Of a DNA stretch of 47,716 nucleotides, positions 1 through 6,000 are shown piece after piece; position 1 is the stretch's first letter; the number at the start of each line of letters is the position of its first letter. The DNA comes from a virus (lineage: Duplodnaviria > Heunggongvirae > Uroviricota > Caudoviricetes): positions 1 through 47,716 of IMG/VR virus record IMGVR_UViG_2925929528_000002; one strand, written 5' to 3'. The position numbers are program-made.

Positions 1-3000
1 TCATATTACTGGATAATCATCATCATCCTTCCATATCCGGTTAATAACGAATGTCACTATTCCTAACACTACGACGTCGTCGAGTGCTTCACCTTCCAGC
101 GCCTCACCATCACGAGTAATAAACGCCTTCCCCATAACTTTCGCAAAATCTGTACCGCCGGAGTACTGGATCAATACCGTGTCCTGCTGCTTTGGTTTAG
201 AGGAGAAATCAATTACGGCATAACCAGTTTCAGTCTGTACGACCCTAGTATTAGGGCCGATGCTGCATAGCTTATCGACGGTTAACCGCCCCTCCACATA
301 GTCTGATGCTGGCGATGGAAATCCCACGATTACAGCCCTCCATTCGGGTTGTAAAGCTGGAACGTGCGATCGTCACCTTCCTGCGTTGAGACATCCCGGA
401 ATGTCGTCACATATTGCTCTATCCACTGGTTAGCCTGGCGCGGTGACCATATCCAGTTAACCTTTGCGAGTTCCCGGATAAAACCGGACGTTGTCACGGT
501 GCGACGGCCATTAGGCTCAATGACAATTGCCTGACGCCAGGCTATTTCGATATCTGAGTTTCGCGGCATAATTTCACCCCCTTAACTACTGTTTTTATAT
601 GGGTCTTCCCTTGTTGTGGTGGCTGAAGGCATGATAATGGTGTATTTAATCGCCAGAGGTCACCGCCATGGACGAAAAGTCCCTCTACGCTCATATTCTC
701 AACCTGTCCGATCCGTGGCAGGTAAAGTCCCTTTCTCTCGATGAAAATGCCGGTTCTGTTACTGTCACTATTGAGATCGCTGAAAACACCCGGCTAGCCT
801 GTCCGGCCTGCGGTAAATCCTGTTCTGTTCACGATCACCGTCATCGTAAATGGCGCCATCTTGATACCTGCCAGTTCACCACTATTGTTGAAGCCGATGT
901 TCCACGAATTATGTGTCCGGAGCATGGCTGTCAGACGTTGCCTGTTCCGTGGGCTGGCCCCGGAAGCCGGTATACGTTGCTGTTCGAATTGTTCGTTCTC
1001 TCATGGCTGAAAATCAGCACCGTTGATGCTGTCAGGAAGCAACTTAAGCTCAGCTGGAATGCGGTTGACGGCATTATGACCCGGGCAGTTAAGCGAGGTC
1101 TTGCCCGGATAAAAAAGCCATTATCCGCCCGTCATATGAATGTGGATGAGGTCGCCTTTAAAAAAGGACATCGTTACATAACGGTGATCTCCGATCGCGA
1201 TGGTCGGGCGCTGGCCTTAACGGATGATCGCGGCACAGAGAGTCTTGCCGGCTATCTTCGCACACTCACTGATGGGCAGTTGCTGGCTATCAAAACGCTC
1301 TCAATGGACATGAACGCGGGCTATATAAGAGCAGCGCGCATCCACTTACCCAGCGCGGTTGAGAAAATCGCCTTTGACCGCTTCCATGTGGCGAAGCAAC
1401 TGGGCGAGGTAGTTGATAAAACCCGTCAGAATGAACATCCGCACCTCCCTGTTGAAAGCCGACGCCAGGCAAAAGGAACCCGCTTCCTGTGGCAGTACAG
1501 TGATAAGTGGATGACTGAATCCCGGCAGGAAAAGCTGATGTGGCTGCGTGCACAGATGAAGCTGACGAGCCAGTGCTGGGCGCTGAAAGAGCTGGCAAAG
1601 GATATCTGGAACAGGCCATGGAGCGAGGAAAGGCGGAGTGACTGGCAGAGATGGCTGGCGCTGGCGGCTAACAGTGACGTTCCCATGATGAAAAATGCTG
1701 CGAAAACGATAGGAAAAAGGCTGTACGGGATCCTGAATGCGATGCGACACAGTGTCTCAAACGGAAATGCGGAGGCACTTAACAGCAAGATAAGGTTGCT
1801 GAGAATAAAAGCCAGGGGATACCGAAACCGGGAGCGCTTTAAACTGGGAGTGATGTTCCACTACGGTAAGCTGAATATGGAGTTCTGAGCCTTCCCACCA
1901 TGATCGGGGAAGACCCTTTTATATACAGTAGATTCATTGGGAGATCTGATCAATACAGGTTCCAGCTATCGATCAGGCGCACCGACGCAACATAATGATT
2001 ATTCAGAAGCAGGCAGGTACTTGTAGATAGTTTTCACGTCTACCCCTATCACATCGGCTACCTGCTGCCGGATTGCGCCCGTACCCAACATCCTGCGGCA
2101 TCGCTCCACAACCTCAGTGGTCATTACCCGGCGGCGGCCGCCTACTCTCCCCTGCTCCCTCGCTGCGGCTAAACCTGCGCGGGTACGCTCGACGATCAGC
2201 TCGCGCTCCATTTTTGCCAGGGCGCTCATGACGTGGAAGCAAAAGCGGCCTGCTGGCGTACTGGTATCGATGCTGTCGGTCAGACTGCGTACATGGACAC
2301 CATGGACTAGCCGAAACAACTTCCGCATGATTTCTTGTTAAAACTGCTTGACCGTAGAAAGAGCAACCCCTACTATTTTTAAAAATACCAATATGCTTTT
2401 TAATATTAGTTTTACCTCTATTTTATCATCCACACGAGCCATAACATGAAAGAGGAAACATTAATAAATGAACAAAAAGAAAGGTATAATCATCGCCCCG
2501 GGCCAAATAATTTCACGCCATGATGGATCAATGACATTTAATAAATTAGAAAGTTCCGACATCAACTTTCTTTTACTATATTGGGACAAAGTTGTTATAT
2601 CAACCAATAATATCTTACATCTTGAGGTTCCTCGAGAAAAAACACTAAGGGAATTAATGGCCGCAGATTTTCCTCGAGCTATAATTACGGAAGATGATTA
2701 CCCCAACGATGAAGGAAGAATACAAGAAAATTTATTTATAAAAGCACAATACAAAATAGCAGAAAAAATCAGCCAAGATGATCATGAGAAATTTGATTGG
2801 AGTTTAAATCAAATTAGTAACAGTCCTGACCTAGTCATTCCCGAGGCATATACAAAACAAGCACTTTTGTTAAAAATGGATTTTATGCAACTACTTCCAT
2901 CCCCAGGAAATCTTACAACCTATGAAGATGTATTAGAATTCAAGGAAAAAAGAGGTGATTTGCTAAATGAACTCCATTCGCATATTGAAGGAATCTGTAT

Positions 3001-6000
3001 GGAGATAATGCAGTCTCCAGATGCAGCTAAAGAAAGAACTAAAGCCATAATTGAATTTGAAAAGAATATAAATGATATACATAAAGTAAGTTTTGAATCC
3101 TTTGGGATTACGAAGAAAAGAGAATTATCAATTTATTTAAACATTAACCACCTGTCTTTAGCCGCAGCTGGCGCGGCTGCAATTTCAGGATTCCATTTTT
3201 TCCCGGATATATTTCACCCACTTAAAACCATAGGTGTAGCAGCTGGTTGCCTTTTAAAAATAGATTGTAAATATGGGATTAGCTTTAATTCCAAAAATAA
3301 TTATAAATATATAAAACAAGCAAGTAATAGAAACTTGCTTAGGAAATGAAATATATTATCTTAAATCCATTTTTCGCCATCCCATCGCATATCGTCTCGT
3401 TCAGGTTTAACAAAGGTTGCATTTTTGGGAAGAGAGTATCTATCCTCGATGATATACATGCAACCTTCTAATATAGCTCTCTGGTTTTCTCCAACAATGG
3501 GCTTTATAAGAGGTCGGCCTTGCTTATCACAAAGGACGCCTTCTGCATTGTTATAACTTGGTTCATACCAATCTTCTCGATAGTATTCAATTCTCTCTTC
3601 GATATCCATAACATCTGTAAAATACCCATTCTCATCAAAACCGTATGCTATTTTTGAACCGAGTTTTTTTCTTTCCATTTTAACGCCCCCATAAAAACCG
3701 CATCAATGATGACGAGATATATAACACACTCAAATAATAGCGTCAACCACATACATGAATTAATTTTACCTATCTAATCAATTACTTAAAATCGCAATGC
3801 AAAAAATATATAACTTTAAGTCAAATTCGTAGCAAAAAAAAAACATCTTATAAATATTCAAACTTCAATCACTCATACAATGACACCCATTTGAATAACC
3901 ACAAATAATACTTAATGATATATAAAACAACATAGCCTCTATCAGCCTGAATAAGCTGCGAGTTAGCGCTGATATCACATTTGGCGGTAACTGTCAGTCT
4001 TTGCTCTATGTAATCAGCAGTCGGAGAAAGGAACGAACCAACCATTATTACATCCCCCTCCCCATGTTACGGAGAATCAACATCCTCATCTCAATATGCT
4101 CCGGCGTCTTATCCGCGAAACACGACTGGTTGTGCTCAATCCACCGGTTAGCCTCGGAGTAGGATAAGTGGATGCCACGGTACACAAGAGAAGAAGCAAA
4201 ATCGCGAGAATGTAGATATTGATAGCCTTTCGAGTTGCGGAGAATCGACTCCCGAAATGCCTGATTGATATCTGACGGTCTGAGCATGATCTGCCCTTCC
4301 ATAAATACTGTTTATTCATAAAGTAATTTTGTTTAAAAGGAAGATCAAGAGAGGTTGCGGCTATCAATCCGAACGATAGCCACTTAGTGCTGAAAGTTAA
4401 TTGTTAACGAACCGATCTGATTTCCATCTCAAGAATATCCGTAAGCAGGGTATTCGCCTTGCCAGTCGTATCCGAGTGAGGGTGCAGATTATCCGGCATC
4501 CAGTACTGGGTTATTGTCTTCCCTGTGCCATCCGTACCAGTCAGTACCTGCTGGCTCCAGCCTGTCTTCTCCCACAGCTTCACGATCTGATACTCCCACA
4601 GCTGCGCGGATTTTAACTGTATCTGAGAAACCTGCGGCCTCAACTCATTTTCATAAAAGCCGATAACAAGAATGCGGGCACGCGGGTTCTGGCTCAGGAT
4701 GTAGTCAATGACAGTGTTCACGCCGCCATAAAACGTGTTGATGTTGCGTGTATCTACCGCGGGTGTCAGCAGACTGGCAACATCTCCCCCTCGCTCCTGA
4801 ATCCACAGATAGTCGTTAATCCCGTGATCGATAACAAACAGGTCCGAATCCAGGTTACCCGACAGCCGGTTGGCATAGGAATAACTCAGGATATTTGCCT
4901 TATCAGTATCCGACAGGGATGCCGGGCCACCTGTCACTAACGCCTTCCATTTCGAATCGTAGTTGTCGATAAATGACTGCTTAATATCGACGGAATGCGA
5001 CAAGGCACGCGTGACACGGGTATATGAGCTTCCCGTCCATCCATATGGGTCGTCAGTGGTAACGAAGGCATCCAGTCCACCACGAATAGGAGATGAGCCG
5101 ACAGACTGGTTAACTATGTTTGCCCCCAGGCGCTGGGCCAGCATATACGGGTAGGAGTTTGTTCCGCTGCCTGCAGGAATCGAGGTTCCCAGCCACACGA
5201 TTTTCTTACCTTTCCAGTAGTCTAGTGGGCTAGTGTTTGCCGCTTGCGTATTACCCGGCAGCTTACTGATCATGCCGCCGGACTTGACTACCTGCAAGTT
5301 ACGGCTGTGCCCGGTGATGCACATCGTAGCAGCGTTCGCTGGTACCGTGACGTTCGTATCTACAGACTGCAGCACGCCGGAGCCCGGGCCCGCGTAGCTA
5401 CGCCCAACAATGGCGCCTGACGTGTCCTTAAAGAGCGCAAGGTATACGTTATTTGGGTTGCCGGAGAATTCAGCGCAGATGATCCGGTAGACTTCACCCG
5501 GAGATACTGCGATTGGGTCTACCGAGAAATACGCCCAGTCGCTCGTAATTAGCGTCCTGACCCCTGTGTTCTGGTGCCAGTAATAGCCGTCCAGCCCTTT
5601 AGGAGAAAGCAGACGCAACCCGGTATCAAAGTCGCGCTGAATAATATCCTTCCGTAAATCTGCCTTGTAGTTGACCATTTTTGTGATGGTCACGTTATCT
5701 GTATAGGCCGTAACGCACATGGACGTAGCGCCAGCCGGCACCGTAACGGGGACATCGACAGCGACGATCGAAGACCCACCAGGACCGAGCTGAGACTTGC
5801 TTACGACCGCACCACTCGCATTTTTGAAAACTACGACGTAAATGCTACCGCTAAACTCAGTCGCAATGACACGATACGACTCACCAGGCGAAACGGGTAT
5901 GGCGTCAAATGCCCGCCAGTTAGGATCGGTGGTGCTCGTTAAGGCGCCGGATGTTGGGTTCCAGTAATACCCTTTCGAAAAGTTTATGCTGATTTGCTGA

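What the first reader, a model, noticed from the sequence alone, without database searches (positions are those of the whole stretch)
2341..4047. AT-rich cargo module replacing the 5' half of the invertase gene
The invertase ORF loses homology about 10 codons after its Met and hits a stop 4 codons upstream. From about 2340 the DNA becomes strongly AT-rich and carries a promoter-equipped 293-aa gene (with C-terminal hydrophobic segment) and a convergent 105-aa gene, neither recognisable. Acquisition of this module appears to have destroyed the tail-fibre invertase, which would freeze host-range switching while adding new cargo.
Basis: partly seen in the sequence, partly recalled or inferred. 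Interest (0 to 1): 0.5.

Follow-up and report, generated by a model that had tools for sequence, protein, structure and literature searches.

The report
Cargo genes replacing a tail-fibre switch
A prophage has lost the DNA-flipping switch that once let it alternate between two tail fibres, and the vacated slot now holds a small AT-rich two-gene cassette of unknown function that also turns up in other phages' cargo slots.

Summary
A 33% GC island (2290-3925; window mean 50%) abuts a serine-invertase remnant (1999-2328, -) that lacks its first ~83 codons, including the catalytic serine. The island carries a 293-aa Pfam DUF6236 protein (+) and a convergent 105-aa orphan (-). Both are under purifying selection.

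E. coli prophages with the intact invertase (88% identical DNA) carry a working switch: a 6.2-kb segment holding two complete fibre gene sets is inverted between two strains, bounded by 26-bp gix-like sites. The window has no such site, no second fibre set and no catalytic domain, so the fibre is fixed.

Three corrections apply:
- The junction is old and shared, 97-100% identical in at least 7 Klebsiella prophages.
- Other relatives lost the invertase independently, at nt 325 and 332 or completely. One carries a retron in the same slot.
- The genes are not wholly unrecognisable. The 105-aa protein ends in a motif from tail-fibre-assembly N-domains.

DUF6236 is a recurrent AT-rich single-gene moron, with no fold match and no known-defence match. 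Function is inferred only: most likely a lysogen-expressed phage-exclusion cargo. This is a new member of a known kind, of moderate interest.

The parts
1..327 (-). UmuD-like gene, copy B. It is the last prophage gene before the zinT/yodB host flank and runs off the window start.
   Evidence: phrog_3469 E 1.6e-49. It is 84-86% identical to the same gene in E. coli prophages L019, L068 and L069. L010 shows host genes follow it.
330..569 (-). phrog_3893 small gene, copy B (79 aa)
   Evidence: phrog_3893 E 1.4e-36
601..1916 (+). ISL3-family (ISKox3-like) insertion sequence. The transposase is at 668-1888. It is a simple insertion between phrog_3893 and the invertase 3' end.
   Evidence: Pfam DDE_Tnp_ISL3. 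Inverted repeats at 586-622 and 1895-1931. L019 is colinear on both sides, and 8 bp of it (L019 6001-6008) match both flanks. It is 97% identical to the ISKox3 region in L070.
1999..2328 (-). Remnant of a Gin/Hin-type serine DNA invertase: the C-terminal 99 residues plus about 10 junction-derived codons. The catalytic domain is missing.
   Evidence: Pfam Resolvase positions 92-144 of 145, plus HTH_7. tblastn of the intact 182-aa invertase matches residues 84-182 only. DNA homology starts at nt 262 of 549.
2290..3925 (.). AT-rich island (33.1% GC) between the two truncated genes
   Evidence: The boundaries come from the ends of homology to L019 (2289) and to L011 (3926).
2348..2376 (+). Sigma-70-like promoter candidate for the DUF6236 gene (TTGACC-17-TACTAT)
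   Evidence: It is a consensus match only, and hits in the region are not enriched over shuffles.
2468..3349 (+). 293-aa DUF6236-family protein, the main cargo gene
   Evidence: PF19749 E 1.2e-23, 84 bits against a cut-off of 26. phrog_23128 E 8e-28. dN/dS 0.13. AF2 pLDDT 77, pTM 0.78.
3317..3341 (-). Hairpin followed by a T-run. It is a terminator candidate for the 105-aa gene and lies inside the last codons of the DUF6236 gene.
   Evidence: Fold -10.4 kcal/mol, z -2.6.
3361..3678 (-). 105-aa acidic orphan protein. Its last 30 residues resemble the end of the fibre-binding N-domain of lambda-type tail fibre assembly proteins.
   Evidence: Only two clusters exist in 5.8e9 proteins. It is always paired with DUF6236. 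hhalign probability 94.5%, E 8e-8, over residues 76-105. dN 0.18 with dS saturated.
3869..4045 (-). UmuD-like gene fragment, copy A. Homology covers only codons 4-42 (about 3920-4036); the ORF then runs into island DNA.
   Evidence: phrog_3469 E 5.8e-9 over residues 4-42. blastn homology to L011 ends at 3926.
4048..4302 (-). phrog_3893 small gene, copy A (84 aa)
   Evidence: phrog_3893 E 2e-30
4404..7610 (-). 1068-aa tail fibre with an SGNH/GDSL-type C-terminus, now fixed in one orientation. No gix-like site lies upstream of it.
   Evidence: PHROG fibre N-domain families. The N-terminal DNA is 74-93% identical to both invertible fibres of L068, L069 and L070. The site search gave 0 hits.

Best explanation
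Window 2290-3925 is a horizontally spread, AT-rich two-gene accessory cassette (a moron). It occupies the slot that, in related prophages, holds the second tail-fibre gene set and the 5' part of a Gin/Hin-type invertase.

Shown:
- The ancestor type has fibre A, an inverted fibre-B set and an invertase, with a 26-bp gix-like site about 22 bp upstream of each fibre start codon. Inverting the 6.2-kb segment puts one fibre or the other behind the late operon.
- In this lineage the second fibre set and the first ~83 invertase codons (catalytic Ser included) are gone, and the invertase-side site went with them. In this window the fibre-side site is gone as well; the Klebsiella prophages carrying the cassette still keep it, so its loss is not attributable to the same event.
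- In their place lie a second phrog_3893 gene, a UmuD-like gene cut at codon 42, and the island. The fibre therefore can no longer be switched.
- The composite block is nearly identical in many Klebsiella prophages, so it formed once and spread by recombination.
- Sister phages lost the invertase at other breakpoints and carry a retron or nothing there. The dead switch has thus become a cargo slot.
- DUF6236 is an autonomous, widely distributed cargo gene of about 285 aa. It sits in AT-rich islands in classic moron slots: after tail fibre genes next to att, or between the lysis and terminase genes.

Inferred (not shown):
- DUF6236 is expressed from its own promoter in the lysogen and benefits it, most likely by excluding or aborting other phages.
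- The 105-aa protein is a stand-alone relic of a fibre-binding Tfa N-domain. It is transcribed by read-through from the late operon, opposite to and overlapping the DUF6236 transcript. The two would then be expressed in opposite phases, and the small protein may modulate or counteract DUF6236 during the phage's own lytic growth.
For: Structure and history:
- Invertase truncation at nt 262 / residue 84.
- An intact invertase sits next to phrog_3893 and the UmuD-like gene at the same zinT/yodB site in L019, L068 and L069.
- L068 and L069 differ by inversion of a 6158-bp segment at 99.9% identity. It holds an SGNH fibre and a 736-aa fibre plus a 250-aa gene.
- The shared 26-bp site TTCGCTCAAACCCTCGTTTGGGCGAA lies at both ends. 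There are two sites in L068 and L069, one orphan site in the cassette-bearing siphovirus prophages, and none in the window.
- The block 2150-4550 is 97-100% identical in 7 prophages, while the fibre body is mosaic.
- Independent breakpoints: nt 332 with a retron (L001), nt 325 (L002), and none left (L011).

Cargo nature:
- GC is 33% against 50%.
- The pair is conserved in two arrangements at 63% and 73% amino-acid identity, with dN/dS of 0.13 or less.
- The profile search finds 1993 DUF6236 cluster representatives.
- Phage Mulock has int, DUF6236, a small ORF and the tail fibre in a 31% GC island. In Vibrio phage ZF14_PE001 it is the last gene after the fibre genes.
- In 31 IMG/VR loci DUF6236 lies mostly 10-13 GC points below its phage, with lysis and terminase genes as neighbours.
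- There is no recurrent partner among 29 genomic loci.

Expression model:
- Variant B has a strong terminator on the DUF6236 strand beyond the small gene and none on the fibre strand.
- In the window no promoter-like site lies upstream of the 105-aa gene. A - strand terminator lies inside the DUF6236 3' end.

Tfa link: hhalign 94.5%, tblastn hits only to Tfa genes, and the N-domain is the fibre-binding domain (PMC9608196).
Against: - There is no functional evidence of any kind.
- PADLOC gave no hit.
- No literature mentions the family.
- The hydrophobic C-terminal stretch is too weak to call a membrane anchor.
- The Tfa resemblance covers only 30 residues, and the 105-aa model failed (pLDDT 38).
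- The pair is known from only two lineages, so the linkage could reflect common descent rather than joint function.
- The promoter and terminator calls are consensus matches.
- Whether the island's arrival caused the invertase loss, or followed an earlier deletion, cannot be decided.
Confidence: 0.55

Rival explanations
1. The two genes serve the tail fibre. The 105-aa protein would be a minimal assembly factor or adaptor for the neighbouring fibre, and DUF6236 an accessory to it. On this reading they are structural or assembly components, not cargo.
For: - The 105-aa gene is on the fibre strand, downstream of the fibre. In variant B it is the very next gene.
- Its C-terminus matches the end of the Tfa N-domain.
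- DUF6236 lies next to tail fibre genes in three unrelated phage lineages.
Against: - The conserved C-terminal chaperone domain of Tfa is absent (no Caudo_TAP hit; the protein ends at the motif).
- Most DUF6236 genes lie far from any tail gene: in bacterial chromosomes, in cassette-like arrays, and in lysis-terminase slots.
- The same fibre type occurs without the pair (L001, L068-L070).
- The GC is foreign.
- DUF6236 is transcribed against the late operon.
Confidence: 0.12
2. DUF6236 is a surface-polysaccharide-modifying enzyme with a nucleotide-sugar-transferase-like fold. It would give lysogenic conversion of the receptor that the neighbouring esterase-type fibre recognises, as seroconverting phages do.
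For: - In 6 IMG/VR loci the next gene is a 485-aa glycosyltransferase-like protein, phrog_1579.
- Position beside a fibre gene and att is typical of conversion genes.
Against: - No DxD-type motif is seen among the invariant residues.
- There is no signal peptide or clear membrane span.
- The 6 glycosyltransferase-linked loci look like one phage lineage.
- There are no gtr-like partners in the window.
Confidence: 0.1
3. The island did not destroy the invertase. An unrelated deletion, for example a fusion of two neighbouring or tandem prophages, removed the second fibre set and the invertase 5' part. It happened to join an island already sitting in a UmuD-like gene to the invertase remnant.
For: - There are two copies of phrog_3893 and the UmuD-like gene, copy A cut and copy B intact.
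- Copy A resembles the pair of variant B phages, where the island sits with no invertase.
- ST846-OXA48phi9.2 lost the invertase 5' part with no cargo in the slot.
- Three different breakpoints show that this gene decays readily.
Against: - The AT-rich DNA starts at the very base where invertase homology stops. One joining event therefore made both.
- No intermediate was found with the island plus an intact invertase, or with an empty UmuD-like copy A.
Confidence: 0.3
4. The cassette is inert hitch-hiking DNA, made of decaying gene remnants with no present function.
For: No known domain with a function and no partner conservation outside two lineages. The block sits between two broken genes.
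Against: - Both ORFs are intact in all copies.
- They show strong purifying selection across variants that are saturated at silent sites.
- DUF6236 keeps 18 invariant residues across 22 sequences as low as 16-24% identical to the window protein.
- The family has about 2000 cluster representatives of constant length.
Confidence: 0.05

Closest known systems
Gin/Cin/Pin/Hin DNA-invertase tail-fibre switches (Mu G segment, P1 C segment, e14 P segment)
   Same: - Serine invertase of about 182 aa with a C-terminal HTH, lying beside the fibre genes.
- 26-bp imperfectly palindromic crossover sites in inverted orientation.
- Inversion swaps which fibre is expressed. This is seen in relatives L068 and L069.
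   Different: - In the relatives, whole fibre genes with their ribosome-binding sites are flipped. The sites lie upstream of the start codons, whereas Mu fuses a constant 5' part to variable 3' parts.
- The site sequence differs from gix/hix: no match at <= 3 mismatches.
- In the window the system is dead, with no catalytic domain and no sites.
Prophage morons and accessory-gene hotspots, such as lambda bor after the lysis genes, cor after the fibre genes of phi80/N15, and the P2 old/tin/fun slots (from general knowledge)
   Same: A foreign-GC insert with its own orientation in an otherwise conserved gene order. Its content varies between sister phages (a retron in 733R5). It sits at the end of the late operon next to att.
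   Different: - The slot was created by decay of an inversion switch.
- The cargo proteins have no assigned function.
- Unlike Cor or Llp, they lack a signal peptide or lipobox (sequence inspection).
Pfam DUF6236 (PF19749) / phrog_23128
   Same: Full-length match above the curated cut-off, with the same length and conserved motifs: LLYWDK, LP.P, LEFKE.R, SSPD.
   Different: The window protein and its 63% relative are the only members found with the 105-aa partner. Their hydrophobic C-terminal stretch is weaker than in most members.
Lambda-type tail fibre assembly proteins (Tfa, about 194 aa)
   Same: Residues 76-105 align with Tfa residues 86-115, the end of the fibre-binding N-domain, including LP.N.T..P....W.G..W. 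The gene lies downstream of a fibre gene on the same strand.
   Different: The conserved C-terminal helical chaperone domain is missing, and the first 75 residues are not alignable. The family is confined to two clusters.

Membership tests
Gin/Hin-type DNA invertase switch | N-terminal serine-recombinase catalytic domain with the active-site Ser (about residue 9-10) | tested here: not met
   The window ORF matches only residues 84-182 of the intact 182-aa relative and Pfam Resolvase positions 92-144 of 145. The intact relative carries MLIGYARVSTGDQ.
Gin/Hin-type DNA invertase switch | C-terminal helix-turn-helix DNA-binding domain | tested here: met
   HTH_7 E 6e-5 over residues 64-107. The score of 23.5 bits is just under the curated cut-off of 23.8.
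Gin/Hin-type DNA invertase switch | Two 26-bp crossover sites in inverted orientation flanking the invertible segment | tested here: not met
   0 matches in the window at <= 3 mismatches. There are 2 in L068 and L069, and 1 orphan in the cassette-bearing siphovirus prophages.
Gin/Hin-type DNA invertase switch | The segment is found in both orientations in nature | tested here: met
   Met for the relatives only: L068 7677-13834 matches L069 13831-7677 at 99.9%. It is not applicable to the window, which has one fibre set.
Gin/Hin-type DNA invertase switch | Fis-bound recombinational enhancer | not tested
   No search was made. In Gin and Hin it lies in the 5' part of the invertase gene (general knowledge), which is deleted here.
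Pfam DUF6236 | Whole-protein score above the gathering cut-off | tested here: met
   84.2 bits against a cut-off of 26.2, E 1.2e-23
Pfam DUF6236 | Single-domain protein of about 285 aa with the family's invariant motifs | tested here: met
   Alignment A1 has 18 invariant columns, including YWD40, P144/P146, LEFKE156-160, S183/D185 and E210. The representatives are 270-340 aa long.
Tail fibre assembly protein (Tfa) | Conserved C-terminal chaperone/trimerisation domain (Caudo_TAP type) | tested here: not met
   No Pfam hit at E <= 0.1. The protein ends at the residue that aligns with Tfa residue 115 of 194.
Tail fibre assembly protein (Tfa) | N-terminal fibre-binding domain | tested here: inconclusive
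   Only the last 30 residues align (hhalign probability 94.5%, E 8e-8). phrog_105 E 0.09. The structure model is unusable (pLDDT 38).
Known anti-phage defence systems (PADLOC-DB v2) | Match to a defence-protein model | tested here: not met
   No family at E <= 0.1 for either protein
Prophage moron / accessory cargo | Foreign composition and presence/absence among otherwise colinear phages | tested here: met
   33% against 50% GC. The slot holds a retron, nothing, a second fibre set or this cassette in relatives.
Prophage moron / accessory cargo | Own promoter and terminator, and expression in the lysogen | not testable with these tools
   Consensus promoter and terminator matches only. No expression data are available.
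Type II toxin-antitoxin pair | Two small co-directional genes in one operon | tested here: not met
   The genes are convergent, with an 11-bp gap here and a 4-bp overlap in variant B.

The most novel reading that the evidence does not exclude
DUF6236 plus the 105-aa Tfa-N-domain relic is a new two-part phage-exclusion system carried by temperate phages. DUF6236 would be the lysogen-expressed effector. The small fibre-binding-domain protein would be made only when the late operon reads through, antisense to the DUF6236 transcript. It would either switch the effector off during the prophage's own lytic growth or bind the fibres of competing phages. More generally, decayed tail-fibre inversion switches would be a recurrent landing pad for defence cargo, such as the retron in a sister phage.
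Probability: 0.15. Interest if true: 0.7.

Novelty: new member of a known kind. Interest (0 to 1): 0.42.

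Why it matters
- It documents, with comparative evidence, how a phage host-range switch dies and how its slot is re-used for accessory genes. The live switch, three independent decay states and two kinds of cargo are all seen in sister prophages.
- It flags DUF6236 as a candidate for functional testing. The family has about 2000 representatives, no literature and no fold relative, and it behaves as a single-gene AT-rich moron in many temperate phages.
- It defines a whole-gene tail-fibre inversion system with a new 26-bp site in E. 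coli and Klebsiella TipJ-type prophages. This bears on predicting the host range of prophage-derived phages.

Tried and rejected
- Canonical gix/hix consensus search in the window and L019: no match. The real site was found only by comparing the two orientations.
- Structure route for the 105-aa protein: the model failed.
- Family scans: Pfam, NCBIfam and PADLOC gave nothing for the 105-aa protein, and NCBIfam and PADLOC gave nothing for DUF6236.
- Looking for the 105-aa partner next to distant DUF6236 genes: none. A profile search added no relatives. The 53-aa ORF in phage Mulock and the 250-aa accessory gene of the alternative fibre set are unrelated to it.
- Conserved-neighbour analysis of 29 genomic loci and 31 viral loci: no constant partner, only slot regularities.
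- Alignment of the island's non-coding flanks between the two variants: not alignable.
- Search for an 'empty' site in IMG/VR using the UmuD-side junction sequence: only the cassette-bearing contig was found.
- PD-(D/E)xK reading of D40...E157-x-K159: rejected, because the model puts E157-K159 in a helix and the spacing is 117 residues.
- Literature searches for DUF6236 and PF19749: zero papers.

Full report
WHAT IS THERE

All late genes in the left 8 kb of the window lie on the - strand. Read in that direction, the order is:
- a 1068-aa tail fibre with an SGNH-type C-terminus (7610-4404);
- an 84-aa phrog_3893 gene (4302-4048);
- a 58-aa ORF whose codons 4-42 are the N-terminus of a UmuD-like protein (4045-3869);
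- a 105-aa ORF (3678-3361);
- a convergent 293-aa ORF on the + strand (2468-3349);
- a 109-aa ORF that is the C-terminal part of a serine invertase (2328-1999);
- an ISL3-family insertion sequence (601-1916);
- a second, intact phrog_3893 gene and UmuD-like gene (569-1).

GC falls from 54-58% to 30-37% between about 2290 and 3925. The island is 33.1% GC against 49.6% for the window.

The invertase ORF matches Pfam Resolvase only at positions 92-144 of 145, plus HTH_7. Homology to intact relatives stops at window 2289, about 10-13 codons after the ATG. A TAA lies four codons upstream.

The island ends at about 3925 rather than 4047. The promoter TTGACC-17-TACTAT (2348-2376) exists only as a consensus match, in a region where such matches are not above chance. 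The hydrophobic C-terminal stretch of the 293-aa protein is weak.

ORIGIN OF THE WINDOW

Locus L010 (CP034734.1) is 100% identical to window 1-11678. Its flank beyond the UmuD-like gene is 100% identical to the E. coli yodB-zinT-msrQP region. The window is therefore a prophage at zinT/yodB in E. coli. Its baseplate genes are Mu-like (Baseplate_J, Mu Gp48). The island was not found in 5,426 complete RefSeq E. coli genomes, in the phage collection or in PLSDB.

THE INVERTASE ONCE RAN A REAL FIBRE SWITCH

E. coli prophages at the same site carry an intact 182-aa invertase directly next to phrog_3893 and the UmuD-like gene (L019, L068, L069). Their DNA is 85-88% identical to window 1917-2289 and 84-86% identical to window 1-600. 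The two window segments are contiguous in L019 and share 8 bp. The IS in the window is therefore a simple later insertion with an 8-bp target duplication.

Strains EC28 and ES4 carry the same prophage, but a 6158-bp segment is inverted between them at 99.9% identity. It contains two complete alternative fibre sets: a 975-aa SGNH/GDSL fibre, and a 736-aa fibre (phrog_4201) with a 250-aa gene (phrog_4390). Whichever set faces the TipJ gene is co-directional with the late operon.

The ends of the segment are a 26-bp imperfect palindrome, TTCGCTCAAACCCTCGTTTGGGCGAA, about 22 bp upstream of each fibre start codon. It has the architecture of gix/hix but a different sequence, which is why the canonical consensus found nothing. 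Whole genes are flipped, not 3' gene parts as in Mu.

THE SWITCH IS DEAD HERE, AND DIED MORE THAN ONCE IN THE FAMILY

The window has no copy of the 26-bp site, no second fibre set, and an invertase lacking residues 1-83, including the catalytic serine.

All other carriers of the island share the same breakpoint at invertase nt 262 (L003-L009, Klebsiella prophages with TipJ-type tails at several integration sites). They keep one orphan site upstream of the fibre. Across these loci the block window 2150-4550 is 97-100% identical, whereas the fibre body is a 71-100% mosaic. So the junction formed once and the composite block spread by recombination. It did not arise in this genome.

Sister phages lost the invertase differently:
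- vB_EcoS-733R5 breaks at nt 332 and carries a retron-type reverse transcriptase in the slot.
- ST846-OXA48phi9.2 breaks at nt 325, with the fibre 3' end about 200 bp away and no cargo.
- A second variant of the island (L011-L018) sits between a 1220-aa fibre and intact phrog_3893 and UmuD-like genes, with no invertase left at all.

The dead switch thus behaves as a variable cargo slot. Whether the island's arrival caused the loss here cannot be shown. The AT-rich DNA begins at the exact base where invertase homology ends, which fits a single joining event. The duplicated phrog_3893 and UmuD-like pair also fits a deletion that fused two prophage ends.

THE CARGO

The 293-aa protein is a full-length member of Pfam DUF6236 (84 bits against a cut-off of 26) and of phrog_23128. 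A profile of 22 homologues finds 1993 cluster representatives at E <= 0.001, nearly all 270-340 aa long. Eighteen columns are invariant, including YWD40, P144/P146, LEFKE156-160, S183/D185 and E210.

Distant members are stand-alone genes found in several settings:
- In a lambdoid prophage between Rz and the terminase (L024).
- In same-strand arrays of small genes with attC-like hairpins (L026-L030).
- In diverse marine and soil bacteria with no recurrent neighbour.
- In 31 IMG/VR phage contigs, where the gene is mostly 10-13 GC points below its phage. Its neighbours there are lysis genes, terminase small subunits and other morons.
- In the isolated Klebsiella phage Mulock, in a 31% GC island between the integrase and a convergent tail fibre gene.
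- In Vibrio phage ZF14_PE001, as the last gene after the fibre genes.

The 105-aa protein is an acidic orphan. Only two clusters exist among 5.8 billion proteins, even with a profile query. Both are convergent partners of DUF6236, with an 11-bp gap here and a 4-bp overlap in the variant. No distant DUF6236 locus has it.

Its last 30 residues align with residues 86-115 of lambda-type tail fibre assembly proteins (hhalign probability 94.5%, E 8e-8). All weak tblastn hits with any annotation of that segment are Tfa genes, at a colinear position. That position is the end of the Tfa N-domain. According to PMC9608196 the N-domain binds the fibre, while the conserved C-terminal helical domain, absent here, trimerises.

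Between the two variants both genes are under purifying selection. DUF6236 has dN/dS 0.13. The small gene has dN 0.18 with silent sites saturated. Neither gene is a decaying remnant. Only the coding parts are conserved; the flanks do not align.

HOW IT MOST LIKELY WORKS

What is shown is the anatomy and history above. What follows is inferred.

DUF6236 points against the late operon and has a plausible promoter and a strong Shine-Dalgarno sequence, so it is probably expressed in the lysogen. The small gene has no promoter-like site of its own and follows the fibre operon without a terminator on that strand. It is probably made by late read-through.

In the variant, a strong terminator on the DUF6236 strand lies beyond the small gene, just before the fibre stop codon (-15 kcal/mol, z -3.4 to -5.2). 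The DUF6236 transcript would therefore run antisense across the whole small gene. In the window, a hairpin and T-run on the - strand inside the last DUF6236 codons would end the small-gene transcript.

This gives two opposed, overlapping transcription units, which would be expressed in opposite phases of the phage life cycle. Three observations point to a lysogen-benefit function, phage exclusion being the commonest for such slots:
- The gene sits in classic moron slots.
- It has a foreign composition.
- A sister phage has a retron in the same slot.

I put this functional reading at roughly one in three. The structural and historical reading is near certain.

The rivals are a fibre-accessory role, a surface-polysaccharide-modifying role suggested by the weak GT-A-like matches and a glycosyltransferase neighbour in one phage lineage, and inert DNA. 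Each is listed with its refuting test.

COMPARISON AND NOVELTY

- The switch in the relatives works like Gin, Cin and Pin but flips whole genes and uses a different site. In the window it fails the defining tests (no catalytic domain, no sites).
- The 293-aa protein is a member of DUF6236.
- The 105-aa protein is not a Tfa, because the defining C-terminal domain is absent. It probably derives from a Tfa N-domain.
- The whole is a new member of a known kind: an accessory cassette in a prophage cargo slot.

Two points deserve follow-up. The slot arose by decay of a host-range switch, and DUF6236 is a widespread, entirely uncharacterised phage moron.

Noticed in passing
window 601-1916: ISL3-family (ISKox3-like) insertion sequence between the phrog_3893 gene and the invertase 3' end. 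An 8-bp target duplication is inferred from L019, which is colinear on both sides.
   Followed up: yes
window 7611-9060: Second AT-rich island (33.7% GC), with a 442-aa + strand ORF (7713-9041) that has no Pfam or PADLOC hit. It is wedged between a 179-aa stub of a Mu-type tail fibre N-terminus (9072-9614, -) and the 1068-aa siphovirus-type fibre. The native fibre of this Mu-like prophage therefore seems to have been replaced as well.
   Followed up: partly
window 45465-47716: Third AT-rich island (about 32% GC), just beyond the integrase (44455-45441). It has three - strand ORFs (265 aa, 145 aa and more than 350 aa) of unknown function, and the last runs off the window.
   Followed up: no
L068 7677-13834 and L069 7677-13831 (E. 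coli EC28 and ES4 prophages): A live whole-gene tail-fibre inversion switch. A 6.2-kb segment with two complete fibre gene sets is found in both orientations. It is bounded by the 26-bp site TTCGCTCAAACCCTCGTTTGGGCGAA, about 22 bp upstream of each start codon.
   Followed up: yes
L001 4076-5817 (Escherichia phage vB_EcoS-733R5): A retron-type reverse transcriptase and a small gene occupy the same slot, between the tail fibre and a 69-aa invertase remnant that broke at a different point (nt 332).
   Followed up: partly
window 1-569 and 3869-4302: Two diverged copies of the phrog_3893 and UmuD-like gene pair in direct orientation. Copy A is cut at codon 42 and resembles the pair of the variant-B phages. 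Copy B resembles the E. coli zinT/yodB prophages. The arrangement hints at a fusion of two prophage ends.
   Followed up: partly
window 4404-7610 compared with L003-L009: The tail fibre gene is a mosaic. Blocks of 71-87% identity alternate with blocks of 97-100% identity among otherwise near-identical loci, which indicates frequent recombination inside the fibre gene.
   Followed up: partly
L030 1440-6845; L026 2568-2645: Distant DUF6236 genes sit in same-strand arrays of small genes separated by attC-like hairpins (RYYYAAC...GTTRRRY, -28 to -43 kcal/mol). This suggests integron gene cassettes.
   Followed up: partly
L075, L076, L078, L082, L085, L087 (IMG/VR), about 6066-7523: In one lambdoid lineage the DUF6236 gene is followed by a 485-aa glycosyltransferase-like gene (phrog_1579, with a weak Pfam GT2 match) in the lysis-terminase moron slot.
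   Followed up: partly
L006 9758-10180 and the equivalent in L003, L005, L008: A 140-aa ORF (phrog_19751) with similarity to integrase C-termini lies after the invertase remnant in the siphovirus carriers. It is absent from the window.
   Followed up: no
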